The position numbers and the translations under genes are program-made. From positions 1 to 58,165 of the IMG/VR virus record IMGVR_UViG_3300031669_000034: a stretch of DNA of 58,165 nucleotides, one strand, 5' to 3'. Below the pieces are notes generated by a model that was not told the origin of the DNA, searched no databases, and saw only the letters and a list, made by a program, of their open reading frames with translations. Shown here piece by piece: positions 10,797 through 27,483 of this stretch (position 1 is its first letter; each line of letters opens with the position of its first letter). This DNA comes from a virus. Lineage: Duplodnaviria; Caudoviricetes.

Positions 10797-11829
10797 TTGG
10801 TTATTAACACGAAAATGCAATCTCAGGTGTGACTACTGCGCGATTGTAAAAAACTATGACGATAAACCTGGTAAATATCCTGATATGAAACATTATTATA
10901 AAAATGAAATGTCAACACATCAAGTTCTTGATGGACTCGATAAGTTGCAAACCCACAATCCAGAGATGTTTCATATCTTTTACGGGGGTGAACCCTTACT
11001 CAGAAAAGATCTACACGAAATCATAAGTCATTGTAATAAACAAAATATTTATTACACTATTATCTCGAATAATACCGAAGAGATAAGACCAATGATTTAT
11101 GACCTATGTGAGAAAGTCAAAGGAAAAATAAAAGGGTTCACCGCCTCCGTAGATCCAGTATTTCAGAATGAAATGGAATCTGGAAAAGATAGAGTCAAAA
11201 AAAGCGTACATGGTTTAGCTAATCTTGTGAATATGAAACAGTATGTAAACGATGTGGTTGCTGAGATTACAGCAATGAAACATAATTATATATACCTGTA
11301 CGATCTATTAAAAGAGCTGACCAAGTATGAAATAAACGGAGATATTACATTTATTGATATTTCTAAAAGCCCATACTATGATTTCTCAAATATTTCAGAT
11401 CCAAACTTGTTGGTGCATCAAACAGCACAGCTTGCGGATCAATTTAAGAAAATAAATAAAGATAAATCCCTAAATGTACACATGAAAGATGTACTGTTAA
11501 GAGGAATGTGGGATACACTTCCATCAAATATGAATTGTGAGATTGATAAACAATTACACAATATTTCAATTGATGCAGATGGAAGTATTCGTTTGTGTCT
11601 TAGAATAAGAGGGACTTTCACACCAGATACGGTAAATTTAAAAAATTTATTATATCAAGATGGGAAAATTTCTCCAATTGCACATGCTGCAATCAAAAGA
11701 GATAAAAAGGAGTATTGCAAATTGTGTAATCATACTTGTCATTTGATGAGTAAATATATAGAGGAAACAGAGTCCGGAGTAGATGATTTAGTTCATACGG
11801 ACGTAAGGGAGGGAACAATAAATGGTTGA
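10780..11829 (+). CDS. Radical SAM enzyme with C-terminal Cys cluster (SPASM/twitch-like)
   Basis: CNLRCDYC, GGEPLL, C...IDADGSIRLC...CKLCNHTC. Confidence 0.88.
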   Translation: MIRIANWLLTRKCNLRCDYCAIVKNYDDKPGKYPDMKHYYKNEMSTHQVLDGLDKLQTHNPEMFHIFYGGEPLLRKDLHEIISHCNKQNIYYTIISNNTEEIRPMIYDLCEKVKGKIKGFTASVDPVFQNEMESGKDRVKKSVHGLANLVNMKQYVNDVVAEITAMKHNYIYLYDLLKELTKYEINGDITFIDISKSPYYDFSNISDPNLLVHQTAQLADQFKKINKDKSLNVHMKDVLLRGMWDTLPSNMNCEIDKQLHNISIDADGSIRLCLRIRGTFTPDTVNLKNLLYQDGKISPIAHAAIKRDKKEYCKLCNHTCHLMSKYIEETESGVDDLVHTDVREGTING

Positions 11830-12567: not shown

Positions 12568-15174
12568 ATGCGCCCTGATTTGGTAGAAGAAATTAGAATC
12601 AATCCGAAGTATACGCAATACTTTTTATCTGAATTTGATAAAGATAAAGAAGAAGGAGATCCCAAAATTATCAAACGGACAATGTTTACAGCAGATTATC
12701 TTAGAAAACTGGGATCCCACTCAACTCTTGCTATGTTACCGCCAAATTGTCGATATATTGAAAGAACAGGAACCGGTGGTTATATAACAGTAATTGAAGA
12801 ACCTCCTGCTATGAGAACTATAAGCATTAGCAGAGATTTCTGGACAGAGAAAAATGAACTAGTGGAACAAGGAAAATGGGTGGAGTATGGATATAAAGGA
12901 TACAACGTTGACTTAAATATCCATAAGTTTAGTTTAGCATTTCCGTATGTAATCTTTATACTGGTGTTCGATAGGAGATTTTATCTATTAGAAGGAATGG
13001 TTTTTATGAGAATTCAACAGCTCATTGGAATGTCTGATTATTTATTAAAAACTCCTCTAAGCAATATATCCAGCGACCAAAGAATATGTTTTGGAGAGCA
13101 TGCAAATAACGGCGGGGCTAAACATTCTTTAAATCATGCGGTCCAAAATGCTATCATGGTTTTCTGGTCGGCTCATTTTAATACTGATTATACGTATAAC
13201 TGTTCAGATTATAAGAAAAAAGGTTCAGTATTTTCTAATATGTTAAAGTGGCAATATTATTCTAATACCAATCCAATGTTCATCTATGATGCTGACTGGA
13301 TTCGAATAGAAAGAACTTTTGGAGAATATATAAACTATACAAAGTGTAAAGAGTATGTAGGAGGAACTTATGCTGGAATGGATTATAAGGATGTTACTAA
13401 TTCTATTTTCTCTCAGGAAGATTCTGGAGTTGATATAAAAATCACACCGAGGGGATCCAGAAAGGCTAGACTGTTCTATGATGTTGCAAATGGAATCACT
13501 ATTGGGGATTACTTTATACATCAGGGGGATCCATTCCAATATAAAAATGGGGATATAGTATATATTGAATCTTTCGCCGGTTTTCAGGATGGGGGTCGTA
13601 TTCACTACATACAAGTTGACAAAAATGGGAAGAAGATTGTCATGAAGTTAACTTCAAAACTTCAAAACTATATTGCTGTATCAAATAAAGCATTAAGATA
13701 CGTATCAGAAGTAATTCTTCCTAATAAGACCAAAGTTAAAAGTGGCGATATTCTTATTGTTGAAGATAAGAATGGAACTTTTTATGCAAAAGTTGACTTC
13801 ATAAGGAATGCACGTGATGGGTCGATAGAAATAAAAATTGGATCTGATTATTATTTAGCTGATAAACTTAATGCTACCTTATTTAATATAACAGATCCAG
13901 AAGTTGATGGAATTAAGCTACAAAAGGGTAAAGAATATTTGATTATAACAGATCCGAGAGGAGGGTCAGTTCTGTCATCCGGAGACATATTAAAATATAC
14001 AGGAGTTTCAGTATCTGGGTCAACTAATATCAAATTTGATTTTCTTGGTGAGCGATATAGAGACTTAATCGGACCTATTACTTTTTCTTTACAGGTTAAT
14101 ACAACGCAAAAAGCTCCAAGAATTTATGAGCTCGATGCAGTTAGAGAGTTCGATGGGAGTTTTAGACTCGGAAAAAGTATATTCTGTATGACATCATCTC
14201 ATAACGCTAGGAGTTCAGGAATAACATATCCTGTAGCATGGGAACTTGCAGATGGTAATGGAGCTGTTTTTAATTCTTACTTTAGACTTGACAAACCAAC
14301 AACTCTTAATAGTCTCGTAAAAGATGACAGATTCTTCTTGCCAGGTATTCATTATGATATAGATTTTAGAGTCGGCGATAAGGTTGTTGTTGCTAACTGG
14401 GGAACTCCAACTGAGATGTTAAAGATTAAAGAGATCGCAGGATTTTCTTTTGTTAACAACGAAAGTAGTAAACGTGATGATCTATATTTTATTTTAACCG
14501 ATAGGGAAGGAAAACTATCCAAACACAAATATATTGATGGATATAAGTCAGTATGTCATATAGGAAGTGTCAGAAAAATAACGAACAGATTTAACGGAGT
14601 TTCAGCAGGTACTAAAATAATTTCTGATACAGCAGGTATTTACGGATTTCCAAAGAAAGATGTAAATATTATTATAGGATTTATTACTGATACGGGTGGA
14701 GATGATCCTCTTGTTCTTTGCTCAAATTGCCAAACCCTTTGGTTTAGTGATATTATTGCAAACTTTAAACGAGTAAGTGTGAAATCTGCAAAATGGAAAA
14801 CTCTCAGTCATTCGCCTATCGACTTGAGTAAAATCAAACCTCAAGCCGGAGATATTATCAACGGTACAGATAAATACAGAATGAATGAGGGGTATATGAT
14901 GGCCCATATGCCTGAATACTCAAATGTTAGAGCGACAATTCTATCATACTATACTGGTTATCCCGAAGCTTATGGAATGGATAGACAATTTAGTAAAGAG
15001 TATATCTATAACTGTATTCCAAATCCAAGGCTCTCTCCGAGTCAACTTAAAGAATTTGGAACGATTAGAGGGTTCTCTAACTTTCACGGACTCTTCTTTG
15101 CTAGCCAAAAATCAGGTGTAAGATTTATCAACCAACCAGGGAGGATTATAAATGTTTCCAGTAGTGCTGAATGA
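12568..15174 (+). CDS. Large protein with N-terminal Prok-E2_D-like domain and beta-rich (SH3/KOW-like) C-terminal repeats
   Basis: FSLAFPYVIF...LLKTPLSNISSDQRICFG...FWSAHFNTDY; later repeated I/V-x-x-GD motifs (IHQGD, VKSGD, FRVGD, PQAGD); overlaps the JAB gene. Confidence 0.65.
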   Translation: MRPDLVEEIRINPKYTQYFLSEFDKDKEEGDPKIIKRTMFTADYLRKLGSHSTLAMLPPNCRYIERTGTGGYITVIEEPPAMRTISISRDFWTEKNELVEQGKWVEYGYKGYNVDLNIHKFSLAFPYVIFILVFDRRFYLLEGMVFMRIQQLIGMSDYLLKTPLSNISSDQRICFGEHANNGGAKHSLNHAVQNAIMVFWSAHFNTDYTYNCSDYKKKGSVFSNMLKWQYYSNTNPMFIYDADWIRIERTFGEYINYTKCKEYVGGTYAGMDYKDVTNSIFSQEDSGVDIKITPRGSRKARLFYDVANGITIGDYFIHQGDPFQYKNGDIVYIESFAGFQDGGRIHYIQVDKNGKKIVMKLTSKLQNYIAVSNKALRYVSEVILPNKTKVKSGDILIVEDKNGTFYAKVDFIRNARDGSIEIKIGSDYYLADKLNATLFNITDPEVDGIKLQKGKEYLIITDPRGGSVLSSGDILKYTGVSVSGSTNIKFDFLGERYRDLIGPITFSLQVNTTQKAPRIYELDAVREFDGSFRLGKSIFCMTSSHNARSSGITYPVAWELADGNGAVFNSYFRLDKPTTLNSLVKDDRFFLPGIHYDIDFRVGDKVVVANWGTPTEMLKIKEIAGFSFVNNESSKRDDLYFILTDREGKLSKHKYIDGYKSVCHIGSVRKITNRFNGVSAGTKIISDTAGIYGFPKKDVNIIIGFITDTGGDDPLVLCSNCQTLWFSDIIANFKRVSVKSAKWKTLSHSPIDLSKIKPQAGDIINGTDKYRMNEGYMMAHMPEYSNVRATILSYYTGYPEAYGMDRQFSKEYIYNCIPNPRLSPSQLKEFGTIRGFSNFHGLFFASQKSGVRFINQPGRIINVSSSAE

Positions 15175-16945
15175 TGGGCAAAATGAAATGCCCAAAGATG
15201 ATATTTATTATGTTATTGCGAAAGAGGGAGTTTATCTTAAGAAGAAATTGGGGGTTATGGAAAGTCTTGCTCCAGTAAAACAGATCTCAACTCTTCAAAG
15301 CATTACAGCTACGGCCACAATGCATATTGAAAAAATTCCTGGTCCTAAATTTGCAAAGATTATCGAGTTCTTTAGAGAAGTTTATAAAGAATACTATGGA
15401 GAAGCAATTGTCCTATTATTTTATGACGAAGAGAAAAAGACCTATTTTATCATGCCTCCACATCAAAAAGTATCAGGCGGATCATGCGATTACAACAGAG
15501 GTATAACCGTAGATGGTTATACTATGATTGGTACAATTCATAGTCATGCCGCAATGTCTGCATTTCATTCTGGAGTTGACGATAAAGATGAGGAAGGGTT
15601 TGACGGACTTCATATTACAATTGGAAATGTGAGGGACGAAGAAGTCAGTATTTCAGCATCAATTGTTGCTAATGGTCATCGGATAATGGTTGATCCGAGA
15701 GATTATGTTGAACAACTGCAACTAACTCAAGACATTGATGAAGATACTACCGGGGCAACTACTAAAGTCTATGAATGGAAAGATGGTAAACTACAAGAGA
15801 ATCTAAAGAAAACGAATCGTTATGCTTACAATTATCGAAGATTTGATAAGCGCTATGTAGTAACAGTAACTGACCACCAAAAACGATTTAATCAGAAATG
15901 GATGAAGGTGGTTGAAAAAGGGCACTACGTTCACAAAGGTTGGAATCGTGGAGTTGGGCGTGGATATGGAGCAGACTGGTATACTGGCAATGGATGGGGG
16001 TATGGATTTGATGCAGACGCATGGAATCAAATGAATCAAGGATTTCAAAGAAGACTTCCAGGTTCATTTGTCGTCCATGGAAAACCAGATCCGAGAAACG
16101 TTGGACCGTACAAAACACAAGGCATAGTCTTTCCTCCTCATAAAGATGAAGATGAAGATGTAAATCATTGTCAGAATTGTGTGCATAGAGATGACAAGTT
16201 GGGTTGGGCTCTTGAGCAATTCACAGAGGAAGCAGAAGATGAACCGGATGAAGAAGATGTGATTGATAATTTTGCATCTCGGGATGATTATGACAAAATG
16301 TTTATGGATGGTAATATTGCATGCCAGAATTGTTTTGAAACTTATCACGGTCCATCCTATCAAGCATGCCCAACGTGTGGTGCACCAAATATTTCTAAGA
16401 TGAAAGCATCACAAGATCCTATAGCAGGTCAAAGATTTAGTTGCCCAACTTGTACAAACGAGTTCGATCATGAGGGAGAAGATGAATGCCCTTTTTGCCA
16501 CACAGAACTAGACTTTACCGAGTTCAGAGAAGCCGCATTAGTAGAAGACAAATCAGACGAAGAGGGAGAACCTTCGATCGGAAAAGATATTGAACCCGGA
16601 AAATGGTATATATGTAACCTTTGTACCACTATATTTGAAGCTAAATCTGTTATAAATGATTGCCATTGCCCGAGTTGTGGCAAATATATGTTGGAAGAGT
16701 ACAATTGTACTCAATATAATATAGAGGATGAAAGAACATCAATTGCCGATAAAGATTCCGGTAAATTGATGGAGGATTCTAAACGCGACATTCTTCTGTT
16801 AGCCGCTGAAGCCGATAAATATCTAGAAAGAATCCCTGATCCACAAAAACTCGAAACTCCTTTATCAACGCGTGTTCAAAAAACATCTCGTATGTCTATC
16901 AAAGAGATGTTCAAAAGGACATTTGGGAAGGAGAGAACTAAATGA
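15152..16945 (+). CDS. JAB/MPN+ metalloprotease (deubiquitinase-like) with C-terminal zinc ribbons
   Basis: GEAIVLL...IGTIHSHAAMSAFHSGVDD = E...HxH-x7-S-x2-D JAMM motif; seven CxxC motifs in the acidic C-terminal half. Confidence 0.85.
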   Translation: MFPVVLNDGQNEMPKDDIYYVIAKEGVYLKKKLGVMESLAPVKQISTLQSITATATMHIEKIPGPKFAKIIEFFREVYKEYYGEAIVLLFYDEEKKTYFIMPPHQKVSGGSCDYNRGITVDGYTMIGTIHSHAAMSAFHSGVDDKDEEGFDGLHITIGNVRDEEVSISASIVANGHRIMVDPRDYVEQLQLTQDIDEDTTGATTKVYEWKDGKLQENLKKTNRYAYNYRRFDKRYVVTVTDHQKRFNQKWMKVVEKGHYVHKGWNRGVGRGYGADWYTGNGWGYGFDADAWNQMNQGFQRRLPGSFVVHGKPDPRNVGPYKTQGIVFPPHKDEDEDVNHCQNCVHRDDKLGWALEQFTEEAEDEPDEEDVIDNFASRDDYDKMFMDGNIACQNCFETYHGPSYQACPTCGAPNISKMKASQDPIAGQRFSCPTCTNEFDHEGEDECPFCHTELDFTEFREAALVEDKSDEEGEPSIGKDIEPGKWYICNLCTTIFEAKSVINDCHCPSCGKYMLEEYNCTQYNIEDERTSIADKDSGKLMEDSKRDILLLAAEADKYLERIPDPQKLETPLSTRVQKTSRMSIKEMFKRTFGKERTK

Positions 16946-17643
16946 ATAAACTATCTATTGTTGTAGTGGGCCTCGGTGGTGTAGGTTCTATTTTAATAGA
17001 ACGTCTCGGTCGCTTTCTGAATTATGGCGATTATGAAGCAAATATGCTTCTAGTAGACGGTGATGAATACGAGGTCAAAAACTATCAAAGGCAAGAGTTC
17101 AATCAAATGGGGAATAAATCTGACGTGAAAGCAACTGAGCTACAAATAAAATTTCCTAAAATTGTGTTGGACTCGTATGATGCCTATGTAAACGAAACAA
17201 ATACTGCTGAGATCATCAGAGAGGGAGACATAGTTTTTCTCTGTGTTGATAATCACAAAACCAGAAACATCATATCCAATTATTGTATGCAATTAAAAGA
17301 TATTACTTTGATTTCTGGTGGGAATGAGTTGACAGATGGAAATGTGCAAATTTATATCAGACAAGGAGGTGTAGACTTAACACCTGATCTCTGTGCATAC
17401 CATCCTGAAATTGCCAATCCCGAAGATAAGTTACCCGAAGAATTGTCATGTGAAGAAAGAGCCAATGCAGATCCTCAGTTGTATTTCTGTAATCTTGGCG
17501 TAGCTACGTTAATGTGTTGGGCCTTTTACAAATCAATCATAAAAGGTCAGATTGATCAGCAGTCTGAAGTATATTTCGATATTCTTCAAATGTCTGCCAA
17601 TGCACAAACTCGAATTGTAAAAACTAAAGAAGGAGAAAGCTAA
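16942..17643 (+). CDS. ThiF/E1-like adenylyltransferase (PRTRC ThiF-like)
   Basis: VVVGLGGVGS, DGDEYEVKNYQRQ, K, CVDN, LSCEE (candidate catalytic Cys). Confidence 0.88.
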   Translation: MNKLSIVVVGLGGVGSILIERLGRFLNYGDYEANMLLVDGDEYEVKNYQRQEFNQMGNKSDVKATELQIKFPKIVLDSYDAYVNETNTAEIIREGDIVFLCVDNHKTRNIISNYCMQLKDITLISGGNELTDGNVQIYIRQGGVDLTPDLCAYHPEIANPEDKLPEELSCEERANADPQLYFCNLGVATLMCWAFYKSIIKGQIDQQSEVYFDILQMSANAQTRIVKTKEGES

Positions 17644-17645
17644 AA

Positions 17646-18125
17646 ATGGTACGTAGAAAAACTTATACAAGAGATCAATTGGAAGCAATGAATGCTAAAG
17701 ACCTCAAAAGTATGGCATTTCATTCACTAGGACTCAGCGGGCTGAGCAAGAAACCCAAAGATGTTGTTGTAGATGCAGTCATTGCCTATCAAGACGGTGG
17801 TAAAGCATCTATCGCACCAGGAAAGGCAGCATCTTCCGGCCCCATTACCGGACTGAACTTCACTGGTCAAAGCAGCCTAACCAATCCAGGCGCTTCATTC
17901 GGTAACAAAACCACAACCACCATTCAAGTATCATGTGGTGCATCTTCAGGAGCCTTTCCGGTTCAGGGAAAAACTGTTCGTGAAGTCGGTGAGTTTTTGA
18001 GAGAAGTTCTCAATGTGAGTCAACTTTCAACCGGTTTGGTAAATGGAAAAGAAGTCGACTCCGGTTATATTTTGAAATCCGGTGATCGTCTTGAATTCCT
18101 GAAACCAGCAGGGCGTAAGGGATAG
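17646..18125 (+). CDS. Ubiquitin-like protein with N-terminal Rho-N/HeH-like domain
   Basis: C-terminal beta-grasp pattern VNGKEV...YILKSGDRLEFLKPAGRKG*; N-terminal LEAMNAKDLKSMA..LGLSGLSKKPKDVVVDAV. Confidence 0.78.
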   Translation: MVRRKTYTRDQLEAMNAKDLKSMAFHSLGLSGLSKKPKDVVVDAVIAYQDGGKASIAPGKAASSGPITGLNFTGQSSLTNPGASFGNKTTTTIQVSCGASSGAFPVQGKTVREVGEFLREVLNVSQLSTGLVNGKEVDSGYILKSGDRLEFLKPAGRKG

Positions 18126-18735: not shown

Positions 18736-18759
18736 GGGAGGAGAGGTAACTTTCCTCCC
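18736..18759. terminator. Intergenic hairpin with GTAA tetraloop
   Basis: GGGAGGAGAG-GTAA-CTTTCCTCCC preceded by an A-run (a U-tract on the minus strand). Confidence 0.5.
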
Positions 18760-18786: not shown

Positions 18787-19644
18787 GTGGCGTACAGAAG
18801 TATAACTATAATAGGAATAGGAACACTGGGAGGATTTATTGCAGAATCTCTTTCAAATCTGGATGGAGTAGAGGAACTAATTATAGTAGACCACGATATA
18901 GTTGAAAAAAAGAATCTAAGGAATTCTATTTATAGACAGATTGATGTTGATCTATTTAAAGTAGATGCTCTTGGAGATATATTATCTATAAATAGAGATA
19001 TTAATGTTAAACAATTTCCAATAAAATTTGAAGAAGGAACAACAAAACTCCCACACTCAGATTTGGTTTTAGATTGCAGAGATTACACTTATGACAGAGG
19101 ATCATATCTTGATGCACGACTTTATATCTCATCTAGATATCTTATGGTCGATTGTCGAAAGAATGTAAAATATGACAATCCAGTTGAAGGTAAATATCTA
19201 GAAGCTCTAACCAAAGATGATTTACGATACGCTTCAACGATGGTAGCAATGTTACTTCATAGTAATACAATTGCATCATTGATTGATGTAGGATCAGTTC
19301 AAAAATATGAACTTGATTATGTAACAAGGATTGACAGTTGCTCATATGATATTTTATATGATGCATCACCTGGAAATGATAAATTTGTCAACCTGCCTGC
19401 AAAAATTATTCCCATTTTAGATCTTAATAGAGAATATGATCTAAATGTATTTGTTGGAAGTAAGAATCTACCATTAACTGAAAGAATTATTCCTAAAGCA
19501 TCTTTAAAAGATGGAAATGATTTAATAATCAATTTAGCATCTGTTACAAGTTTACAATGCAATTTTAATCAATATCTTGTATCTCCATTTAAGGAAGGTG
19601 GAAAAGTTTATATTGAACTTATTCCTGAAACTGGAGCTGCATAA
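18787..19644 (+). CDS. Second ThiF/E1-like protein, with a C-terminal extension ending IELIPETGAA
   Basis: GTG start after AAGGAG; IIGIGTLGG, DHDIVEKKNLRNS, K, DCRD. Confidence 0.8.
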   Translation: MAYRSITIIGIGTLGGFIAESLSNLDGVEELIIVDHDIVEKKNLRNSIYRQIDVDLFKVDALGDILSINRDINVKQFPIKFEEGTTKLPHSDLVLDCRDYTYDRGSYLDARLYISSRYLMVDCRKNVKYDNPVEGKYLEALTKDDLRYASTMVAMLLHSNTIASLIDVGSVQKYELDYVTRIDSCSYDILYDASPGNDKFVNLPAKIIPILDLNREYDLNVFVGSKNLPLTERIIPKASLKDGNDLIINLASVTSLQCNFNQYLVSPFKEGGKVYIELIPETGAA

Positions 19645-19982
19645 TGAAATTAACCCGCATTGCAGTAAAAAATTTAATTGTCCCAAGACGATTGATTTTT
19701 AGAAATGAATTCTATAAAATATTAGATTACCCAAACAAATATATAATCAAAGGATATACTGTTATCTTACTTGATGATAAAATTGATGAGTTAGAAATTA
19801 GGGACTCACATCCCAATGCAAACCCAAGGACTGGAGAATTTTGTATACCAAACACATTACGAAACTTTCCATTAAACGATGAAACGAAAAACATGATTCA
19901 TAACATCTTAAGTTGCTTTAACTTAGATAATTGCTACTTCACTCCTTGGAACGAAATTCAATATAGAAAACAAGAGGTGTGA
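19644..19982 (+). CDS. Minimal E2/UBC-like protein
   Basis: SHPNANPRTGEFCIP matches the UBC active-site pattern HPN-x-G-x-x-C; coupled to ThiF-2. Confidence 0.55.
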   Translation: MKLTRIAVKNLIVPRRLIFRNEFYKILDYPNKYIIKGYTVILLDDKIDELEIRDSHPNANPRTGEFCIPNTLRNFPLNDETKNMIHNILSCFNLDNCYFTPWNEIQYRKQEV

Positions 19983-20215
19983 ACATGCTTAAAGAAAAAA
20001 AACCATTATTATCTAGAAAAAAATTGGACAAAGCTCTTGGTGAATCAATTGATGAGCTCAGCGATGCAACCAAGAAAAGTTCAAGAAAGGTCTTTGATGC
20101 TTTGATAGAAGAAGGGGTACAGACCATAAGTCATATTTTTGATAAATATAAGATAATAGCAAAACAAAAGGTGATCAGACATGGCCAAGAAAAAGACGAT
20201 AGGGATAGTGAGTGA
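19979..20215 (+). CDS. Hypothetical small helical protein
   Basis: GTG start after GAGGT; overlaps neighbours. Confidence 0.55.
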   Translation: MNMLKEKKPLLSRKKLDKALGESIDELSDATKKSSRKVFDALIEEGVQTISHIFDKYKIIAKQKVIRHGQEKDDRDSE

Positions 20216-20426
20216 AATGCACTCAGGGATTCTTGAACAAGAAATTATTCGAATTGTTGAAAAAGTAACACGTGATAATCTACTCGGATTAGCGGCAGAC
20301 GATGTTAAAATCATCGCTAAAGAACTTATGCCCGATTTTGATAGAATGATTTCTAAAAAAATCAAGGATCACTTATATGAGATAGGGGAGTTCCTTATGG
20401 AACGATTTAATACGGAAGACGACTAG
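20181..20426 (+). CDS. Hypothetical small protein directly upstream of RNAP beta'
   Basis: 81-aa ORF; AAGGTGA upstream. Confidence 0.6.
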   Translation: MAKKKTIGIVSEMHSGILEQEIIRIVEKVTRDNLLGLAADDVKIIAKELMPDFDRMISKKIKDHLYEIGEFLMERFNTEDD

Positions 20427-20437
20427 GGGGAGAAATA

Positions 20438-23155
20438 ATGCCAAAAATTCTTAACTATGCTAAATTTTGTGAAAATTTAGAGGAAGTAACCTCTCTAAAA
20501 ACATTTGGGAAAAAGAAGTTTCATTCTAATGGTTTATTCTCCGAGCAAATCTTCGGACCAGTCAGAAACTATACATGCCAATGCGGTACGTATCATGGAG
20601 TTTCAAAATCTGGAGGTACTTGCAAAGAATGTGATGTTGATATTGTTAATAGCGATGAAAGACGAAAAAGATTTGCAAAAATAGTTTTGCCAACACCAGT
20701 TGTTAATCCACTATTCTATGATTTATTAGTTGATATTGCCGGAAGAACTCTAAAAAGTGCGCTTGATGATTTAATGAAAATGGATAAGAGCGTTCTATAT
20801 ATTCAAGATGGTGAATTTGTAGTTACAGTAAACCCCGAAACAATCCCAGCTGGATTACAACAATGGGAACGTATAGAAGCTATCAGAGTTCTTGTCGAAA
20901 CATTAGCTACTGATATGGTTGCTGAGGGAATTCCGGAATGGAAAATTGTTTTAGATAATATTGATAATCTTATTATTGATACAATAATTGTATTACCTCC
21001 AGACTTAAGACCGACGTCTAAAAGTTCAGGCGAAGGAAAACAGTTGATGGACAAAATTAATCGTTATTATGTCCAGATACTAACTAAGAAAGAGATAATG
21101 AAAGATACGATTATTGATATTCGAAGAGATAAAAGTTTGTATTACACATACTTCAAACAATTACAAAAAGATGTCAGCGAATTATATACACGAATATTGG
21201 AAAAGATGGCAAAGAAAGAGGGATTGATTAGAGGAAATATTCTTGGTAAAAGAATTGATTTTTCGGGTCGAGCTGTGATAACTCCAGACCCAACTTTAAA
21301 TCTTGATGAATGTAAATTGCCCTATTTAATGATTCTTGAAATTTTCAAATTGCCTATTGCCAAAAAGATTATGTCTTTGGGTAAATTCAAGATTTTAAAT
21401 AGAGCGATTGATTATGTCGACCTGTGTATTGATAGTCAATCCCCAGCTCTTTTCAAAGTTTGTGAAGGGCTTATTCAAAATGAAGTTTGTATTCTAAACA
21501 GACAACCATCGTTACATAAACTCGGAATGCTTGGTTTCAATATTAAGATAACTCTTGATCAAGTTATTAAAATACACCCGTTGGTGTGTCCTCCATTCAA
21601 TGCAGATTTTGATGGAGATCAAATGGCAGTATATATTCCAATTACAGATGAGGCCAAACAGGAAATTCGGGACAAGATTTTTATCACTAAAAATTTAAGT
21701 AGTCCTGCAAATGAAAGTTTGACAACAACGCCAAGTCAAGATGTCATTTTGGGAATATACTATTTAACTTCCATTGAACTTACGACATATTCAGAAATGA
21801 TAGAATACAAAGGACAAAAAATTACATGGGGACAAGCTGAATTTAATAAATGTCTGCCAGAGGATTATCCAATAATTGATACACCAGTCAACAACGATAA
21901 ATTATTGGATATATTAAATCATATTAAAGATCACTATCCGGAAATGGTTACAGTTCAAGTTTTAGATGCAATCAAAAGGATTGGATTCAAATATGCTACT
22001 CTCTTTGGTTGTACTATGTCACTAAAAGATTGTACGATGGAAGGTGCCAGAGAATTTAGGGATCAGTTGTTTTCAGATGATGATATACACAAACAATTAG
22101 TAGCAGTTTCAGACCCCGCTGTAACACAAAAGATGCGAGAGAACTTCAAATATTCATATATGATTGAATCAGGTGCAAGAGGAAGCTGGGATCAAGTTCG
22201 ACAGCTAGTTTTGACCAGAGGATTTATCTCAAACTTTCAAGGAAAAATTCTTCCAGAACCAATCAAGAATTCATTGATGGATGGGTTGACTAATAAAGAA
22301 TTTTTCTATTCAACATACGGGTGTCGAAAAGGTTTGCTTGATGTTGCTTTGAATACCGGCACAAGCGGATATCTGTCAAGAAAACTAATATTTACTTGTG
22401 CAAATCTTCAAATTGATCCAATACTTGAAGATTGCGGGACGAAAGATCTTTTAACAGTTGAAGTTAAAAATAAACTGAAAGCTCGAATGTTAATTAACAG
22501 ATATATGCTTGAGAATAAAACATTAGTTAGAATAACCAGAGAAAATTATAAAGATAATATTGGAAAGATAATTCAAATTAGAAGTCCAATATTGTGTCAA
22601 AGTCCAAGAATCTGTCATACTTGCTATGGAGATCTATATAAACGATTGAATAGCAGATTCATTGGAATCATAGCAGCTCAAACTCTTGGTGAAAGAGGAA
22701 CCCAATTAGTATTAAGAACATTTCATACTTCTGGTTCAGCGGTCATTAAGGGAGAAGGAGAAGAAAGCGGGGATGTGGATCAATCAATGCTTCAAGAAGA
22801 CATTATTGGAGATCTCGCTTCTGTGTCTGAACTATTGCATAAGTTCAAAGGAAAAAGTTATGATGGTATAGTTTCAGAATTATTTGATGCCTATGGTAAA
22901 GATATTTATCATGTTCATTATGAATGTGTGGTTGCTCAGCTTATGTGGAGTAACTATCGAAAATGGAGACTATTAGAAAATAGGGTACTAGTCGAACCGG
23001 ATTACTTTTCAATCCAATCTGTGCCCAATCAGGAAAGCTGGATATTAGCGATGGCCTTCTCAAATCCAAAAAGATCAATTTTACAGGGCATACTATATGA
23101 AGGAAGATATTCAGGAGTCATGGATAAAATTCTAAAGGGGGAACGAATCACATGA
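20438..23155 (+). CDS. rpoC: Phage multisubunit RNA polymerase beta' subunit
   Basis: GLFSEQIFGP, Zn finger CQC..CKEC, VLPPDLRP, GKRIDFSGRAVI, LNRQPSLH, catalytic NADFDGDQM, bridge helix TSGYLSRKL, trigger loop TQLVLRTFH. Confidence 0.96.
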   Translation: MPKILNYAKFCENLEEVTSLKTFGKKKFHSNGLFSEQIFGPVRNYTCQCGTYHGVSKSGGTCKECDVDIVNSDERRKRFAKIVLPTPVVNPLFYDLLVDIAGRTLKSALDDLMKMDKSVLYIQDGEFVVTVNPETIPAGLQQWERIEAIRVLVETLATDMVAEGIPEWKIVLDNIDNLIIDTIIVLPPDLRPTSKSSGEGKQLMDKINRYYVQILTKKEIMKDTIIDIRRDKSLYYTYFKQLQKDVSELYTRILEKMAKKEGLIRGNILGKRIDFSGRAVITPDPTLNLDECKLPYLMILEIFKLPIAKKIMSLGKFKILNRAIDYVDLCIDSQSPALFKVCEGLIQNEVCILNRQPSLHKLGMLGFNIKITLDQVIKIHPLVCPPFNADFDGDQMAVYIPITDEAKQEIRDKIFITKNLSSPANESLTTTPSQDVILGIYYLTSIELTTYSEMIEYKGQKITWGQAEFNKCLPEDYPIIDTPVNNDKLLDILNHIKDHYPEMVTVQVLDAIKRIGFKYATLFGCTMSLKDCTMEGAREFRDQLFSDDDIHKQLVAVSDPAVTQKMRENFKYSYMIESGARGSWDQVRQLVLTRGFISNFQGKILPEPIKNSLMDGLTNKEFFYSTYGCRKGLLDVALNTGTSGYLSRKLIFTCANLQIDPILEDCGTKDLLTVEVKNKLKARMLINRYMLENKTLVRITRENYKDNIGKIIQIRSPILCQSPRICHTCYGDLYKRLNSRFIGIIAAQTLGERGTQLVLRTFHTSGSAVIKGEGEESGDVDQSMLQEDIIGDLASVSELLHKFKGKSYDGIVSELFDAYGKDIYHVHYECVVAQLMWSNYRKWRLLENRVLVEPDYFSIQSVPNQESWILAMAFSNPKRSILQGILYEGRYSGVMDKILKGERIT

Positions 23156-23370
23156 GAGATCCCAAAAGAATACCAGAAATATTAGATGAACTAAAGGGGA
23201 TTTGGGGAGCAGTTCCTGATCTACGCTTTGGTCAATTGATAATAAATGTAATAGGCACACAAATATTATCAAAAGAAAATGACCAACAATTTTATTATAT
23301 GGAGGATGAAGAACTAATAAAACTTTTTAGAAAATATCTTTCGGAGGTTAAATATATTGAACATCATTAA
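23152..23370 (+). CDS. Small conserved phage protein (MRDPxRI...W...PDLRFGQL; YihD/DUF1040-like)
   Basis: Recognisable motif; lies between the two RNAP genes. Confidence 0.65.
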   Translation: MRDPKRIPEILDELKGIWGAVPDLRFGQLIINVIGTQILSKENDQQFYYMEDEELIKLFRKYLSEVKYIEHH

Positions 23371-26359
23371 TCCAACATTTAAAATCCAAGATTTGGATAA
23401 AAATGTCTTTACAATAAGACAAAAGGATTACGATCAGATTTTACCGTTGGTTCAGAAAATAGTTAAACCAGTTGAGGAGATTGGCTTCGAAATAAATGAA
23501 ATTGATCTCAAGGATTCAAGGTTTGCTTCCGGAGAATTATCATCAACTCTAAAGCAAACTTTAGTTATCAAAATGCAAAAGGGTACTGCAAATATTGATA
23601 TCTCAATATTCATTCCAAAACTGGTAGAAAATAATTATATTTACATCAACGGAAGGAAAAAGATTCCTCTATTTCAGTTATTTGATATTCCCATTGTTAC
23701 AAGAGGCGAAAACATCAAACTCAGAACAAATGTAGCAACCATTGTTGTCACATTAGAAAAAGAAGGTCCAAGAGTTCAGATTAGTTTTCTTGGGAAAAAA
23801 GTTCCTCTTTCTTTAATGTTTCTTGCATATTATGGCATTGAAAGAGTATACGAGATGTTCAGCCTCACTGAAAAGATTGACCCTTCGGACGGTCATTTGT
23901 ATGAGATACTCAGATTTGATCTTAAGGATTATTGTGAGGAATCCAAGGGATACACACAAGATGATTTTGTTTTAGAAGTTGGAAGAATTTATTCTCGCTT
24001 CAATCAAAAATCAAAAGGTGAAGATATAATGTACGCCCTTGATCTTATTCCCAAGGTCGATATTATTACAGCAAAGTTTTTAACAACCGACTCAATTTTA
24101 GAAGAATTAGTTGAAGCTATCAAAATTGGGGACATCGACGATACACTATTTACTAATAAACGGGTTAGATGTTTCGAGTATATGGTTACATCTAAAGTCT
24201 CAAAAATCATATTTGATTTATGCTTCTCAAACAGAACATCTCGGCAACCAAAATTTAATATCAACTCCACTCAAATATTATCAGAGTGTAATGTATCAGA
24301 TATTGTTCAGTTTGATTTCTCTATTAATCCAATTGAAGAACTAACCAAGTTATCCCGAATAAGTCTTTTAGGACCTGGAGGATTTAAAAGAGAAAATATT
24401 CCACAGCATTTGAGAGACATATGTCCAACTATGTACGGTCGAGTGTGTCCGGTTGATACTCCGGATAGAGACAATTGCGGAGTCTTACAAAATTTAATTC
24501 CAAATGTTTTATTGGACGATAATCTGAAATTTAGCGATGAATTTTTAGAGAATCAACCAATTTCAATGCCAGTTTCAATGACTCCATTCTTGAAACATGA
24601 TGATCAAACAAGACTTCAAATGGCGGCATCACAAATGCGCCAATCAATTATGTTAAAAGAGTTTGATACTCCATTGATCAGTTCTGGTTGTGAAGGTCTT
24701 TATTCAGACTATACACAATTTGTCAAGCGAGCCAAAAAAGATGGTGAAGTTCTGCATATTGATCGTAACTATATCATAGTAATCTATAATGATAAAGATG
24801 CAGATGTGTTTGACATTAGTTATAGAAAGATTTATGTTGAACATCTTGACTTTATGAACATCTATATAAAACCAGGAGATAAATTCAAAGCGGGTGACAT
24901 TCTTGCCGAAAGTAACTTTTGTAAAGATGGAAAAATTAATATAGGCAAGAATCTATTAACTGGGGTAATGGTGTATTATGGAAACAACTATGAGGATGGT
25001 ATTGTCATATCTGATAGATTGGTTGAAGATGATTCCCTAACTTCAGTGCATTATAAAGAATTATCATTTTCACTGACACCTGAAAAAGTATTGTTATCTC
25101 TTAGTGAGGATAAATACAAACCATTGCCTGATGATTTAGAAGTAATTCAGGCAGGAAATCCATACGCAATTTTGAAAAAATTAAATTCTGATGATTTTTA
25201 TTCAGTATTCTCAGAACCCATTGAGTTGATTGCTAGGAAAAACTTCATTATTTCAGAAGTAAATCTCTATGCAAATTCATGGAATGAAGAAGTTCCGGAG
25301 TATAAGAAATGGATTGAAACGAAACTTCAAGAACAATCTGAAAAAGAAAATTATCTTCAAAAAATGATGAAAGTACATTTACCAAAAGATCACGCTATCA
25401 AATTTATTAGAGAACGAGGACTTGATAAATTTTCGTTCGTCGGAAAATATAAAAATAAAAGAGAAAAAATTAATGGTATTCAAGTCGAAATGATTGGAGT
25501 TCATACAAGAAAAATAAAAGTCGGGGATAAGATCGCAAACAGGCATGGTAATAAGGGAGTTATTTCAAGAATAGTCCCTCATGATAAAATGCCCCAGTTA
25601 CCAAATGGGCAACACCTGGATATTTGTATTAATCCTCTAGGTATTATTTCTCGAATGAACTTTGGTCAATTATATGAATTACATCTAGCATTTTCAGTTA
25701 GTCATCTAAAACGAAAAATGATTGAGATGATTGACGCAGAAGTTCCAGATAAAGAGATTACAGATTTTCTATTTGGATATATAGAAATTATTGACAAAAC
25801 AAATGGAAAATGGTATTCAGAACAAATCAAAGAACAGTTACCAAAGAAAATTACAAAGGAATTTGTTGAAAATTTTACTATCATTCAACCTCCTTTTGAA
25901 TCATGCAGAATTGAAGAAGTTGAAAAGGCAATGGAATACACAGGAACCAATTTTACCGAAGTTCTTTATGATCCATTATCTCAAGTTAATTTACATAATG
26001 AAATTGCAGTTGGTTATATTTACTTTTTCAGAATGGTTCATATTGCTGAAGAAAAATTAGCTGCAAGAGGAATTGGAGCATATGCCAGGAGAACACTTCA
26101 ACCGCTCGGCGGAAGAAAGAATAAAGGTGGTCAGAGATGTGGAGAAATGGAAACCGCCTGTTTGATTGGTCATGATGCACCATGCAACTTATTTGAATTT
26201 CTTACAACTAAATCAGACTGCATTGATCTAAAAAATAGTTACATCCGTGGTTTTATTGAATCCAAACTTGTTGACGAAACTAAGGAATTAAATCCAATGC
26301 CGGAATCGGTAAAACTCCTTAATTCTTACTTAACAGTTATAGGAGTTGATCACAAATGA
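23357..26359 (+). CDS. rpoB: Phage multisubunit RNA polymerase beta subunit
   Basis: TTG start after GGAGG; LGPGG, GRVCPVDTPD, HDDQTRLQM..QMRQ, NYEDGIVIS, GDKIANRHGNKGVIS, NPLGIISRMN, GGQRCGEME. Confidence 0.96.
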   Translation: MNIINPTFKIQDLDKNVFTIRQKDYDQILPLVQKIVKPVEEIGFEINEIDLKDSRFASGELSSTLKQTLVIKMQKGTANIDISIFIPKLVENNYIYINGRKKIPLFQLFDIPIVTRGENIKLRTNVATIVVTLEKEGPRVQISFLGKKVPLSLMFLAYYGIERVYEMFSLTEKIDPSDGHLYEILRFDLKDYCEESKGYTQDDFVLEVGRIYSRFNQKSKGEDIMYALDLIPKVDIITAKFLTTDSILEELVEAIKIGDIDDTLFTNKRVRCFEYMVTSKVSKIIFDLCFSNRTSRQPKFNINSTQILSECNVSDIVQFDFSINPIEELTKLSRISLLGPGGFKRENIPQHLRDICPTMYGRVCPVDTPDRDNCGVLQNLIPNVLLDDNLKFSDEFLENQPISMPVSMTPFLKHDDQTRLQMAASQMRQSIMLKEFDTPLISSGCEGLYSDYTQFVKRAKKDGEVLHIDRNYIIVIYNDKDADVFDISYRKIYVEHLDFMNIYIKPGDKFKAGDILAESNFCKDGKINIGKNLLTGVMVYYGNNYEDGIVISDRLVEDDSLTSVHYKELSFSLTPEKVLLSLSEDKYKPLPDDLEVIQAGNPYAILKKLNSDDFYSVFSEPIELIARKNFIISEVNLYANSWNEEVPEYKKWIETKLQEQSEKENYLQKMMKVHLPKDHAIKFIRERGLDKFSFVGKYKNKREKINGIQVEMIGVHTRKIKVGDKIANRHGNKGVISRIVPHDKMPQLPNGQHLDICINPLGIISRMNFGQLYELHLAFSVSHLKRKMIEMIDAEVPDKEITDFLFGYIEIIDKTNGKWYSEQIKEQLPKKITKEFVENFTIIQPPFESCRIEEVEKAMEYTGTNFTEVLYDPLSQVNLHNEIAVGYIYFFRMVHIAEEKLAARGIGAYARRTLQPLGGRKNKGGQRCGEMETACLIGHDAPCNLFEFLTTKSDCIDLKNSYIRGFIESKLVDETKELNPMPESVKLLNSYLTVIGVDHK

Positions 26360-26598: not shown

Positions 26599-27483
26599 AT
26601 GACAGAATGTTTACCAGATATTCAATGCTCAATACCGGATATTAAAATCCCCATTATGCAAGTAGGTGTTGAAAATATTGAAGTCCCTTTCAAATTGGAA
26701 TCTAAGTATGGCGGGTATCATCAGATGATTGCAAACGTATCTCTGAGAACCAACTTGGATAAAGATACGAAAGGGATTTCAATGTCAAGATTGCTTCTAA
26801 CTTTGAAGCCATATCTTGACTTACCATTAAAGCATACATTGATCAAACAAATACTTGAAGATGTACGAAAAAATGTTGAGAGCGATGCTGCATTTATGAA
26901 GTTTGAATTTCGAATGCCGATAATACGAAAGTCTATAAAATCGGATAATGAGTTTCCTATCTACTATAAATGCAAATTTGAAGGACAGCTATTTAAATCT
27001 CCCGTATTCGTTGAACAGGGAGTATTTACAATTACAGATCATTTCAGATTCTATCAAGGCGTTATAATCCAATATGCTTCATACTGCCCTTGTTCAGCAG
27101 AGTTGTGTGGCCATTTAAATGAAAATGAGTCAAAGGGATATCCACACAATCAAAGATCGTATGCTGACATTCTTATAGAAGTTATTGACCCTCATTATTT
27201 ATGGTTAGAGGATATTATCGACGCTGTTGAAGAACAGTTGATAACTATTCCATATCCAATAATCAAAAGACTAGATGAACAAGAGATAGCAAAGGTAGCT
27301 GCTGAAAATCCGATGTTTGTTGAAGATTCGATCAGAAAAATATCACAATGTTTGAATGATCGTGAAGATGTTTTTGATTGGATTGTTAAGTGTTCTCATG
27401 AAGAATCAATACATACATCTGAAGCAATTGCAGTTAATTGGAAAGGTCGCCCGGGTGGATTTAATGGGAGAAGATATCTATGA
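26599..27483 (+). CDS. folE2: GTP cyclohydrolase IB (FolE2)
   Basis: LPDIQ, KGISMSRL, YCPCS, HNQRS, KRLDE, NPMFVED, EESIH. Confidence 0.92.
   Translation: MTECLPDIQCSIPDIKIPIMQVGVENIEVPFKLESKYGGYHQMIANVSLRTNLDKDTKGISMSRLLLTLKPYLDLPLKHTLIKQILEDVRKNVESDAAFMKFEFRMPIIRKSIKSDNEFPIYYKCKFEGQLFKSPVFVEQGVFTITDHFRFYQGVIIQYASYCPCSAELCGHLNENESKGYPHNQRSYADILIEVIDPHYLWLEDIIDAVEEQLITIPYPIIKRLDEQEIAKVAAENPMFVEDSIRKISQCLNDREDVFDWIVKCSHEESIHTSEAIAVNWKGRPGGFNGRRYL

What the first reader, a model, noticed from the sequence alone, without database searches (positions are those of the whole stretch)
18787..19982. Second, different E1/E2 module: ThiF with Ubl-like tail plus minimal HPN..C E2
Seen: ThiF-2 keeps the adenylation motifs, lacks the CxxC zinc pairs and ends IELIPETGAA, reminiscent of ThiS/MoaD/Ubl tails with two residues after a Gly. 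The coupled 112-aa gene has HPNANPRTGEFC, the canonical UBC active-site pattern. Inference: a self-contained E1-Ubl fusion, matured by JAB trimming of the AA and transferred through a tiny E2. The same apparent transcription unit continues into the RNAP genes, so RNAP could be a target.
Basis: partly seen in the sequence, partly recalled or inferred. Interest (0 to 1): 0.78.

Follow-up and report, generated by a model that had tools for sequence, protein, structure and literature searches.

The report
Phage E1 with own tag tail, mini-E2
An uncultured large phage carries, just before its RNA polymerase genes, an activating (E1-type) enzyme that ends in its own strictly conserved ubiquitin-style tail, coupled to a stripped-down conjugating (E2-type) enzyme, which looks like a self-contained protein-tagging pair not yet described in print.

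Summary
18787-19644 encodes a 285-aa ThiF/E1 protein and 19644-19982 a 112-aa protein with HPNANPRTGEFC. Residues 1-190 of the E1 are a complete adenylation domain (nearest solved structure: the E1 domain of CBASS Cap2, Z 18.8). A disordered linker follows, in which 58 of 65 relatives carry a Cys. Then comes an extra ~85-aa alpha-beta-beta-alpha-beta-beta domain ending ELIPETGAA. The tail is the best-conserved part of that domain. T-G-A-A is kept in 47 of 54 related viral loci (TG[AS]A in 53) while all four synonymous codons are used at each position, so selection acts on the peptide. This tail motif was found only at the end of this E1, never on a stand-alone small gene. The 112-aa protein models confidently (pLDDT 95). 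Its structural matches are almost all UBC E2s, but weak (Z 4.2-5.1). H, P, N and Cys are kept in 146-150 of 150 distant relatives. The gene order, from a PRTRC-like E2/JAB/E1/Ubl set through this pair to RNAP beta'/beta, is fixed in 55 viral contigs. My reading (about 0.5): the E1 activates its own tail and passes it to the mini-E2. Trimming of AA by JAB is doubtful, the beta-grasp fold is untested and the target is unknown. This scan flagged the same module earlier on other DNA. I found no paper on it.

The parts
18787..19317 (+). ThiF-2 residues 1-177: compact, complete E1 adenylation domain
   Evidence: Pfam ThiF 49.3 bits. VIA-align: model residues 1-188 match Cap2 E1 domain 7tsx_B at Z 18.8, rmsd 2.8, 174 aligned. 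ThiF 1zud_3: Z 16.3. MoeB 1jwa_B: Z 16.5. G10/G12/G15/D35/D37/N43/K58/D96/R104 kept in 65 of 65.
19318..19377 (+). ThiF-2 residues 178-197: disordered linker carrying a wandering Cys (C185 here)
   Evidence: pLDDT below 50 for 178-197. 58 of 65 relatives have a Cys at aligned positions 185-187; 7 have none there.
19378..19626 (+). ThiF-2 residues 198-280: extra C-terminal domain, helix, two strands, helix, two strands
   Evidence: AF2 secondary structure H207-216, E219-224, E229-235, H243-254, E263-270, E273-280. It lies outside every E1 structural match, which end at model residue 186-201. No Pfam, PDB-sequence or Atlas match.
19627..19641 (+). Tail ETGAA (residues 281-285), the most conserved stretch of the C-terminal domain
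   Evidence: 47 ETGAA, 3 DTGAA, 3 ETGSA, 1 EQAVA of 54 loci. All four synonymous codons are used for T, G, A and A in 47 distinct loci. The motif was found only at the end of this E1.
19644..19982 (+). Mini-E2, 112 aa; HPN at 19809-19817, candidate catalytic Cys67 at 19842-19844
   Evidence: AF2 pLDDT 95. Foldseek: all listed rows are E2s, E 0.11-0.43. VIA wide: best 1yrv_A, Z 5.1, 93 aligned. pdb_via: 50 of 50 rows are E2s, Z 4.2-4.8. H/P/N/C kept in 150/146/148/149 of 150.
12568..18125 (+). Upstream PRTRC-like module (868-aa protein with weak Prok-E2_D hit, JAB 597 aa, ThiF-1 233 aa, Ubl 159 aa): context and possible source of the peptidase
   Evidence: Prok-E2_D E 0.004, Prok-JAB E 0.00015, ThiF 79 bits, ThiS E 0.017. 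PRTRC_A E 2.5e-12, PRTRC_ThiF E 4.3e-10, both below their cut-offs. Syntenic in the related loci.
20438..26359 (+). RNA polymerase beta' (905 aa) and beta (1000 aa) genes directly downstream, with small genes 19979-20215, 20181-20426 and 23152-23370 between
   Evidence: ORFs. tblastn to phage rpoC at 28% identity. Beta' follows the pair in 54 of 55 loci; the other locus is cut.

Best explanation
ThiF-2 is a self-contained activating enzyme plus tag. Its N-terminal 190 residues are a working E1 adenylation domain. A flexible linker of about 20 residues lets the extra C-terminal domain put its small-residue tail (..ETGAA) into an adenylation site, its own or that of the partner in an E1 dimer. 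The C-terminal carboxylate is adenylated. It may pass through the linker Cys, then goes as a thioester to Cys67 of the translationally coupled mini-E2, and from there to an amine on an unknown target. The whole 33-kDa E1 would then be what gets attached, as the CD-NTase is in Cap2 systems. Shown here: domain layout, motif and tail conservation, selection on the tail peptide, exclusive fusion, gene coupling, and E2-like model and motif. Inferred: every chemical step, the E1-E2 partnership, and the target. I lean towards the intact ..GAA end being the reactive end rather than a Gly exposed by trimming.
For: (1) Residues 1-190 are a whole E1 domain whose nearest solved relative is the Cap2 E1 domain (Z 18.2-18.8; the next entry is 16.8). 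Cap2 adenylates the disordered extreme C-terminus of a non-beta-grasp protein (passages of 10.1101/2022.03.31.486616). (2) Nucleotide-binding residues are kept in 65 of 65 relatives. (3) 7 of the 12 invariant or near-invariant columns of the C-terminal domain lie in its last 9 residues. (4) T-G-A-A is kept with free synonymous change, and the last three residues are all small. (5) The tail motif occurs only at the end of this E1. In viral contigs, 44 of 44 complete ORFs are E1-fused and 8 more are cut. In metagenome contigs, 74 are full E1 ORFs, 38 are cut, 3 are fragments of the fused gene and 3 read TGG instead of a stop. (6) The secondary-structure order beta-beta-alpha-beta-beta ending in a strand plus a 5-residue tail is the Ubl layout. 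(7) The mini-E2 start lies within -47 to +8 nt of the ThiF-2 stop in 46 of 47 distinct contexts. A mini-E2 follows in all 54 loci that reach past ThiF-2. (8) HPN and Cys are nearly invariant. (9) The mini-E2 lacks the N-terminal helix, since the model aligns to UBC residues from about 29-38 onwards. From general knowledge that helix is where canonical UFDs dock, so a UFD role for the extra domain is less likely. (10) The neighbouring Ubl has a different tail, AGxKG(C), which fits two orthogonal pathways.
Against: No chemistry was tested. The beta-grasp fold of the extra domain is unverified. hhalign against the neighbouring Ubl family gave probability 0.2. A profile search of PDB sequences gave 0 hits, the Atlas search gave nothing usable and Pfam gave nothing. 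The E2 fold matches are weak (Z at most 5.1, Foldseek E at least 0.11). Neither the protein nor its profile hits UQ_con or any E2 chain by sequence; only 2 of 150 relatives hit UQ_con weakly. The canonical Arg position of NLxRQ is variable. The linker Cys is missing in 7 of 65. One locus (L041) has a tail without Gly (ELIAEQAVA) yet keeps an HPN..C mini-E2. An Ala-Ala end is unusual for E1 substrates.
Confidence: 0.5

Rival explanations
1. The extra domain and tail are a docking or regulatory module, not a substrate. ThiF-2 would be a minimal E1 laid out like eukaryotic E1s (adenylation domain, Cys loop, C-terminal ubiquitin-fold domain) or like UBA5, whose extreme C-terminus binds its E2. It would activate the separate 159-aa Ubl, or a host Ubl, and use its C-terminal domain and tail to recruit the mini-E2 or to plug its own active site.
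For: The order adenylation domain, Cys-bearing flexible segment, small C-terminal alpha/beta domain mirrors canonical E1s; that layout is from general knowledge. UBA5 chains are among the good structural matches (6h78, 5iaa, Z about 16). A bona fide Ubl with a free Gly is encoded two genes upstream in the same conserved block. One locus keeps the mini-E2 without a Gly in the tail.
Against: Docking domains do not usually keep their last five residues invariant, nor end in three small residues. The mini-E2 lacks the N-terminal helix used for UFD docking. The upstream Ubl already has its own adjacent E1 and E2-like protein.
Confidence: 0.25
2. One reading: the tail is a precursor. The JAB peptidase removes the two Ala to expose Gly283, which is then activated and passed to the mini-E2.
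For: One JAB/JAMM protein is encoded in the block in every locus that reaches that far: 50 of 55, with the other five cut. The neighbouring Ubl ends G or GC, which suggests C-terminal trimming occurs in this system. Two-residue extensions occur in some eukaryotic Ubl precursors (recalled, not from a call).
Against: The last Ala is kept in 54 of 54 loci. The penultimate residue is Ala in 50 and Ser in 3, under full synonymous turnover. The real Ubl's extension in the same genomes is facultative. Cap3, the JAB of Cap2 systems, is reported to need the residues before the cut (passage in 10.1101/2022.03.31.486616), so invariant residues after the cut are not explained.
Confidence: 0.12
3. ThiF-2 is the second subunit of a heterodimeric E1 with ThiF-1, or a sulfur-carrier or non-protein ligation enzyme whose tail becomes a thiocarboxylate or acyl donor for a small-molecule or nucleic-acid modification.
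For: Two E1 genes are always together. A radical SAM gene and a FolE2 GTP cyclohydrolase lie in the same region. MccB, a peptide C-terminal adenylating enzyme, is the best PDB sequence match (E 8e-5).
Against: Both E1s keep nucleotide-binding motifs and they are only 22% identical over 113 residues. No rhodanese or sulfurtransferase was seen in the block. The coupled partner carries the HPN..C signature of conjugating enzymes.
Confidence: 0.1

Closest known systems
Type II CBASS Cap2 (E2-E1 fusion) with its CD-NTase substrate and the Cap3 JAB peptidase
   Same: The E1 domain is the nearest solved structure (Z 18.8). PADLOC E1-E2 models hit ThiF-2 (best E 8.1e-11). In that system a whole enzyme, not a small Ubl, is activated through its flexible extreme C-terminus and handed to an E2 Cys, and a JAB peptidase is present (passages read).
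   Different: Here E1 and E2 are separate genes. The presumed substrate tail is on the E1 itself rather than on a separate CD-NTase. The E2 is a 112-aa HPN-type protein. The genes belong to a phage core block, not to a bacterial defence operon.
Canonical UBC E2 enzymes (Pfam UQ_con)
   Same: HPN followed by Cys at the canonical spacing. All Foldseek and pdb_via rows are E2s, covering 84-93 of 112 residues.
   Different: No significant sequence or profile match. It lacks the N-terminal helix and the C-terminal helices, since the model aligns to UBC residues about 29-146. It has its own conserved C-terminal motif NLDxCYFxPW.
ThiS/MoaD-ThiF/MoeB pairs, and the Ubl-ThiF fusions noted by Iyer, Burroughs and Aravind 2006 (PMC1779556)
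   Same: An E1 adenylation domain acting on a strand-plus-small-residue tail. The paper notes a Ub-like domain fused to certain ThiF proteins (passages read).
   Different: In that paper the Ub-like domain is at the amino-terminus of the ThiF, so its own C-terminus is not free. Here the domain is C-terminal with a free, invariant tail ending GAA rather than GG, and an E2 follows.
PRTRC cassette / operon class with E2-like, JAB, E1 and Ubl
   Same: This is the family of the upstream module, which lies in the same conserved block.
   Different: ThiF-2 and the mini-E2 are not part of the PRTRC gene set. The mini-E2 is HPN-type, while Prok-E2_D members lack that motif (Pfam family description, recalled).
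Bub pathways (BubAB fusion cleaved by BubCD)
   Same: A Ubl encoded as a fusion with a pathway enzyme (abstract and section headings only). BubCD is among the E1 structural matches (Z 15.5-15.8).
   Different: Bub works through oxyester intermediates, and the section heading says its E1 lacks a catalytic Cys. Here the E2 Cys is nearly invariant.

Membership tests
E1-like / ThiF superfamily (PF00899) | Profile match above the curated cut-off | tested here: met
   49.3 bits against a cut-off of 28.1, residues 5-100.
E1-like / ThiF superfamily (PF00899) | Whole adenylation-domain fold | tested here: met
   Model residues 1-190 align to Cap2, SUMO E1, MoeB, ThiF, MccB, UBA5 and Atg7 at Z 15.3-18.8 with 168-190 residues aligned.
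E1-like / ThiF superfamily (PF00899) | Nucleotide-binding G-loop, ribose Asp, phosphate Lys and Mg Asp (assignment of roles recalled from ThiF/MoeB) | tested here: met
   G10, G12, G15, D35, K58 and D96 are kept in 65 of 65.
E1-like / ThiF superfamily (PF00899) | Arg of the NLxRQ motif | tested here: inconclusive
   The aligned position 45 is variable (K 36, S 10, R 3, A 3 of 65). R50-Q51 four to five residues later is kept (R in 63 of 65) and may replace it.
E1-like / ThiF superfamily (PF00899) | Catalytic Cys on a mobile loop (conjugating E1s only) | tested here: inconclusive
   58 of 65 have a Cys at 185-187 in the disordered linker. C123 is kept in 45 of 65. C97 is invariant but lies in the DCxD motif.
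E1-like / ThiF superfamily (PF00899) | Zn-binding CxxC pairs (ThiF/MoeB subgroup) | tested here: not met
   There is no CxxC in the sequence. This is not required of all E1s.
UBC / E2 superfamily | Profile or sequence match to UQ_con or solved E2s | tested here: not met
   0 Pfam families for the window protein. No E2 appears in phmmer or profile searches of PDB sequences. 2 of 150 relatives hit UQ_con, best E 0.0033.
UBC / E2 superfamily | HPN motif followed by the catalytic Cys | tested here: met
   H56-P57-N58 and C67. Kept in 80 of 80 close relatives and in 150/146/148/149 of 150 distant ones.
UBC / E2 superfamily | UBC core fold | tested here: inconclusive
   Every listed Foldseek row and 50 of 50 pdb_via rows are E2s. 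The top 7 rows and most of the top 30 rows of the wide search are also E2s. The scores are low (E 0.11-0.43; Z 4.2-5.1, rmsd 3.2-4.7, 84-93 aligned) and an unrelated chain reaches Z 4.1.
UBC / E2 superfamily | N-terminal helix alpha-1 (E1/E3 docking) | tested here: not met
   The model starts with strands (E3-8) and aligns to UBC chains from residue about 26-38 onwards.
Ubiquitin-like beta-grasp modifiers (ThiS/MoaD/Ub) | beta(2)-alpha-beta(2) core | tested here: inconclusive
   The secondary-structure order fits (E219-224, E229-235, H243-254, E263-270, E273-280).
Ubiquitin-like beta-grasp modifiers (ThiS/MoaD/Ub) | Conserved Gly at the flexible C-terminal tail | tested here: met
   G283 is kept in 53 of 54 loci, but it is followed by two conserved residues instead of being terminal.
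Ubiquitin-like beta-grasp modifiers (ThiS/MoaD/Ub) | Sequence or profile similarity to a known Ubl family | tested here: inconclusive
   hhalign against the neighbouring Ubl family gave probability 0.2. No PDB-sequence hit, no Pfam hit and no usable Atlas hit.
Type II CBASS Cap2 system | E2 and E1 in one polypeptide next to a CD-NTase | tested here: not met
   The genes are separate. No CD-NTase family appeared in Pfam, NCBIfam or PADLOC scans of the block.

The most novel reading that the evidence does not exclude
An enzyme that is its own ubiquitin. ThiF-2 adenylates its own intact ..GAA C-terminus, in trans within a dimer, and is handed as a whole to the HPN-type mini-E2. It is then covalently attached to a target: a phage protein such as the adjacent RNA polymerase, or a host protein. 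Conjugation would thereby deliver or anchor an active E1 or a scaffold. This would be a phage-owned, E3-free, two-gene conjugation system that runs alongside, and orthogonal to, the PRTRC-like Ubl pathway next door.
Probability: 0.35. Interest if true: 0.85.

Novelty: new variant of a known kind. Interest (0 to 1): 0.66.

Why it matters
Ubiquitin-like conjugation in prokaryotes has so far been worked out mainly as bacterial anti-phage defence (Cap2, Bil, Bub). Here the machinery is a fixed core feature of a large clade of uncultured phages. It comes in two copies, and one copy has an unreported layout: an E1 with an in-cis tail plus a 112-aa E2 that keeps the eukaryote-style HPN..C site. If the tail is the substrate, this would be the smallest known E1-E2 tagging unit and a second case, after cGAS/Cap2, of a whole enzyme used as the tag. 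It would also make the question of what phages tag during infection directly testable with two small genes. The mini-E2 family (258 representative clusters at E 0.001 or better) is of interest for the minimal requirements of the UBC fold.

Tried and rejected
An RBS or DNA-level constraint as the cause of tail conservation was rejected. The tail lies just upstream of the coupled E2 start, but every tail codon varies synonymously across 47 distinct loci.

Split (stand-alone) forms of the C-terminal domain were sought three ways. A 'shorter' protein search with residues 198-285 gave one 135-aa hit on a 1281-base contig, probably cut. The only short complete ORFs (L170, L182, L204) are fragments of the fused gene.

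Homology of the C-terminal domain to the neighbouring Ubl was not detected. No PDB-sequence hit and no usable Atlas hit were found either.

BFVD Foldseek with the whole ThiF-2 model returned only viral ThiF-like proteins and nothing for the extra domain.

Complex prediction (two ThiF-2 copies plus the mini-E2) gave 'no answer' with score 0.00. It counts neither for nor against binding.

tblastn of both proteins against 50,697 GenBank phage records found no match, and blastn of the region found none. Pattern scans of one genome per prokaryote species found no relative of either protein. These scans use a few peptide patterns, so absence is not shown.

Context of distant mini-E2 relatives: two single-protein scans of viral contigs found nothing.

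Literature searches found no paper describing an E1 with a C-terminal tag tail or this mini-E2 in phages. A preprint on Asgard viruses mentions three ThiF/E1-like genes in one virus (passages read), but I could not link them to this family. Supplements were not seen.

A MccB-like peptide-antibiotic reading was considered and set aside. The match covers only the Rossmann part and the partner is E2-like.
Full report
**What is there.** Between 18787 and 19982 lie two + strand genes. One is a 285-aa protein (GTG start preceded by AAGGAG), here called ThiF-2. The other is a 112-aa protein whose ATG shares one base with the ThiF-2 stop (TAATG). The window has about 32-39% G+C. It carries phage genes: a weak large-terminase hit, type II topoisomerase subunit A, an SbcC/Rad50-like ATPase with a metallophosphoesterase next to it, and single-ORF RNA polymerase beta' and beta. 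Neither the DNA nor the two proteins match any of 50,697 GenBank phage records.

**ThiF-2 anatomy.** Pfam ThiF matches residues 5-100 at 49.3 bits against a cut-off of 28.1. An AlphaFold2 model built on 65 relatives (mean pLDDT 81.6, pTM 0.80) shows three parts.
- Residues 1-190 align to complete E1 adenylation domains. The best is the E1 domain of Cap2 (7tsx_B: Z 18.8, rmsd 2.8, 174 aligned). SUMO and NEDD8 E1s, MccB, MoeB, ThiF, UBA5 and Atg7 follow at Z 15-17.
- Residues 178-197 are disordered (pLDDT below 50).
- Residues 198-285 form helix, two strands, helix, two strands and a 5-residue tail. This part lies outside every E1 match.

The G-loop, D35, D37, N43, K58, D96 and R104 are invariant in 65 of 65 relatives. 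The position that aligns with the Arg of NLxRQ is variable, while R50 is kept in 63 of 65. The site is therefore probably active but in a variant form. There are no CxxC pairs. In the disordered linker 58 of 65 relatives carry a Cys that wanders over three aligned positions, and 7 lack it. It is a candidate E1 catalytic Cys, not a proven one.

**The tail.**
- Of 120 listed protein relatives (52-100% identity) 118 end [ED]TGAA. One ends ETDQL and one runs on after ETGAA.
- In 54 related IMG/VR loci, down to 34% identity, the ends are ETGAA 47, DTGAA 3, ETGSA 3 and EQAVA 1. The exception (L041) is in frame and still has an HPN..C partner.
- In an alignment of the last 95 residues, 7 of the 12 invariant or near-invariant columns are in the last 9 residues.
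- Because the tail sits just upstream of the coupled E2 start, I checked whether the DNA rather than the peptide is conserved. In 47 distinct loci Thr, Gly and both Ala each use all four codons. Selection is therefore on the peptide, including the last two Ala.
- A degenerate DNA pattern for E-L-[IL]-[PE]-E-T-G-A-A-stop found 52 places in viral contigs. All 44 complete ORFs are E1-length (283-336 codons) and 8 are cut by the end of the fetched locus.
74 are full E1 ORFs and 38 are cut by the end of the fetched locus. 3 read TGG in place of the stop. 3 short ORFs are fragments of the fused gene.
- No stand-alone version of the domain was found.

**The 112-aa protein.** The model is confident (pLDDT 95).
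- All listed Foldseek matches in the PDB are UBC E2 enzymes, but with E 0.11-0.43.
- An exhaustive VIA-align search gives E2s in the top seven rows (best 1yrv_A: Z 5.1, rmsd 4.2, 93 aligned) and in most of the top 30. An unrelated chain reaches Z 4.1.
- A second look at Foldseek's matches gives E2s in 50 of 50 rows at Z 4.2-4.8.
- These Z values are below the level at which the tool advises trust, so the fold alone is suggestive only.
- Sequence methods do not see E2s. Only 2 of 150 relatives touch UQ_con, at E 0.0033.
- The motif is what makes the case. H56, P57, N58 and C67 are 80 of 80 in close relatives. In representatives down to about 20% identity they are 150, 146, 148 and 149 of 150.
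- A second Cys (C97) is kept in only 111 of 150.
- The protein lacks the N-terminal helix and the last helices of UBC enzymes, and has its own C-terminal motif NLDxCYFxPW.
- The family has 258 representative clusters at E 0.001 or better.

**Context.** In 55 viral contigs the order is fixed: radical SAM, WYL-like, a 127-aa gene, an 868-aa protein with a weak Prok-E2_D hit, JAB, ThiF-1, a 159-aa Ubl, sometimes a 197-aa gene, then ThiF-2 and the mini-E2, small genes, and RNAP beta' and beta.
- JAB is present in 50 of 55 loci; the other five are cut.
- Beta' is present in 54 of 55.
- The mini-E2 is seen by BLAST in 52 loci and by eye in L042/L043. L054 is cut.
- The mini-E2 start lies within -47 to +8 nt of the ThiF-2 stop in 46 of 47 distinct contexts.
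- The upstream set resembles the PRTRC cassette (PRTRC_A E 2.5e-12 and PRTRC_ThiF E 4.3e-10, both below their cut-offs).
- Its Ubl ends AGxKG in 33 loci and AGxKGC in 17 of 52. That is a different tail with a facultative extension.
- ThiF-1 and ThiF-2 are only 22% identical over 113 residues.
- No terminator-like site was found on the + strand between 17567 and 21000. A hairpin without a T-run lies in the 64-nt gap before ThiF-2.

**How it most likely works.** The closest structural relative of the E1 domain, Cap2, adenylates the disordered extreme C-terminus of a whole enzyme and passes it to an E2 Cys (passages read). ThiF-2 offers the same ingredients in a new arrangement:
- an intact adenylation domain;
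- a flexible linker, often with a Cys;
- a small domain whose most conserved feature is a strand followed by a tail of small residues;
- a coupled HPN..C protein.

I therefore think the tail is the E1's substrate and the mini-E2 its acceptor (confidence about 0.5). All chemical steps are inferred.

The two Ala are as constrained as the Gly, whereas the real Ubl's extension in the same genomes comes and goes. I cannot exclude trimming.

The main rival (0.25) is that the domain and tail recruit the E2 or regulate the site, as the UFD or the UBA5 C-terminus do, with the 159-aa Ubl as substrate. The absence of the E2's N-terminal helix and the invariance of the very last residues count against it. 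RNAP as target rests on adjacency only.

**Comparison and novelty.** The thing works like a Cap2/CD-NTase system and like ThiS-ThiF, but it is a member of neither; see the membership rows. Iyer et al. [quoted passage not shown] That is a different topology, because it leaves no free tail. Five literature searches found no description of this module. Supplements were closed.

Earlier notes of this scan describe the same pair on other genomes, and one follow-up reached a similar reading. I re-derived the facts here and added four things: the synonymous-codon test, the exclusivity of the tail, the linker Cys count and the argument against trimming.

**Limits.** The complex prediction gave no verdict.

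Noticed in passing
window 19339-19341 (ThiF-2 Cys185) and aligned positions 185-187 in relatives: A Cys that wanders over three adjacent alignment positions in the disordered linker is present in 58 of 65 relatives. It behaves like a mobile-loop catalytic Cys but is dispensable in 7.
   Followed up: partly
P0231, P0277, P0288, P0344 (relatives of the mini-E2): Some relatives are tandem double mini-E2 proteins. In P0231 and P0277 the first copy keeps HPN but has lost the Cys, like a UEV-type inactive partner fused to an active E2.
   Followed up: no
L041:10001-11208: This is the only related locus whose ThiF-2 tail lacks Gly (ELIAEQAVA, in frame). Its mini-E2 keeps HPN..C but has lost the second Cys motif.
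   Followed up: partly
window 10780-11829: The radical SAM protein at the head of the conserved block scores best against the viperin-family model (E 3.3e-13, far below cut-off) rather than QueE, although a FolE2 GTP cyclohydrolase lies at 26599-27483.
   Followed up: no
window 217-1083 and 12568-15174: Two further proteins give weak Prok-E2_D hits (E 0.0023 and 0.004). With the mini-E2, the window therefore holds three E2-like genes.
   Followed up: no
window 18736-18759: A G+C-rich hairpin (GGGAGGA...TCCTCCC) without a following T-run sits in the 64-nt gap between the 197-aa gene and ThiF-2.
   Followed up: no
three of the loci L108-L225 and P0055: In three metagenome loci the codon after ..ETGAA is TGG instead of a stop. 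One listed protein (P0055) likewise runs on past ..ETGAA, with WCFSR.
   Followed up: no
window 17646-18125 and relatives: The 159-aa Ubl ends AGxKG in 33 and AGxKGC in 17 of 52 loci. This fits C-terminal trimming of a one-residue extension in part of the clade.
   Followed up: partly
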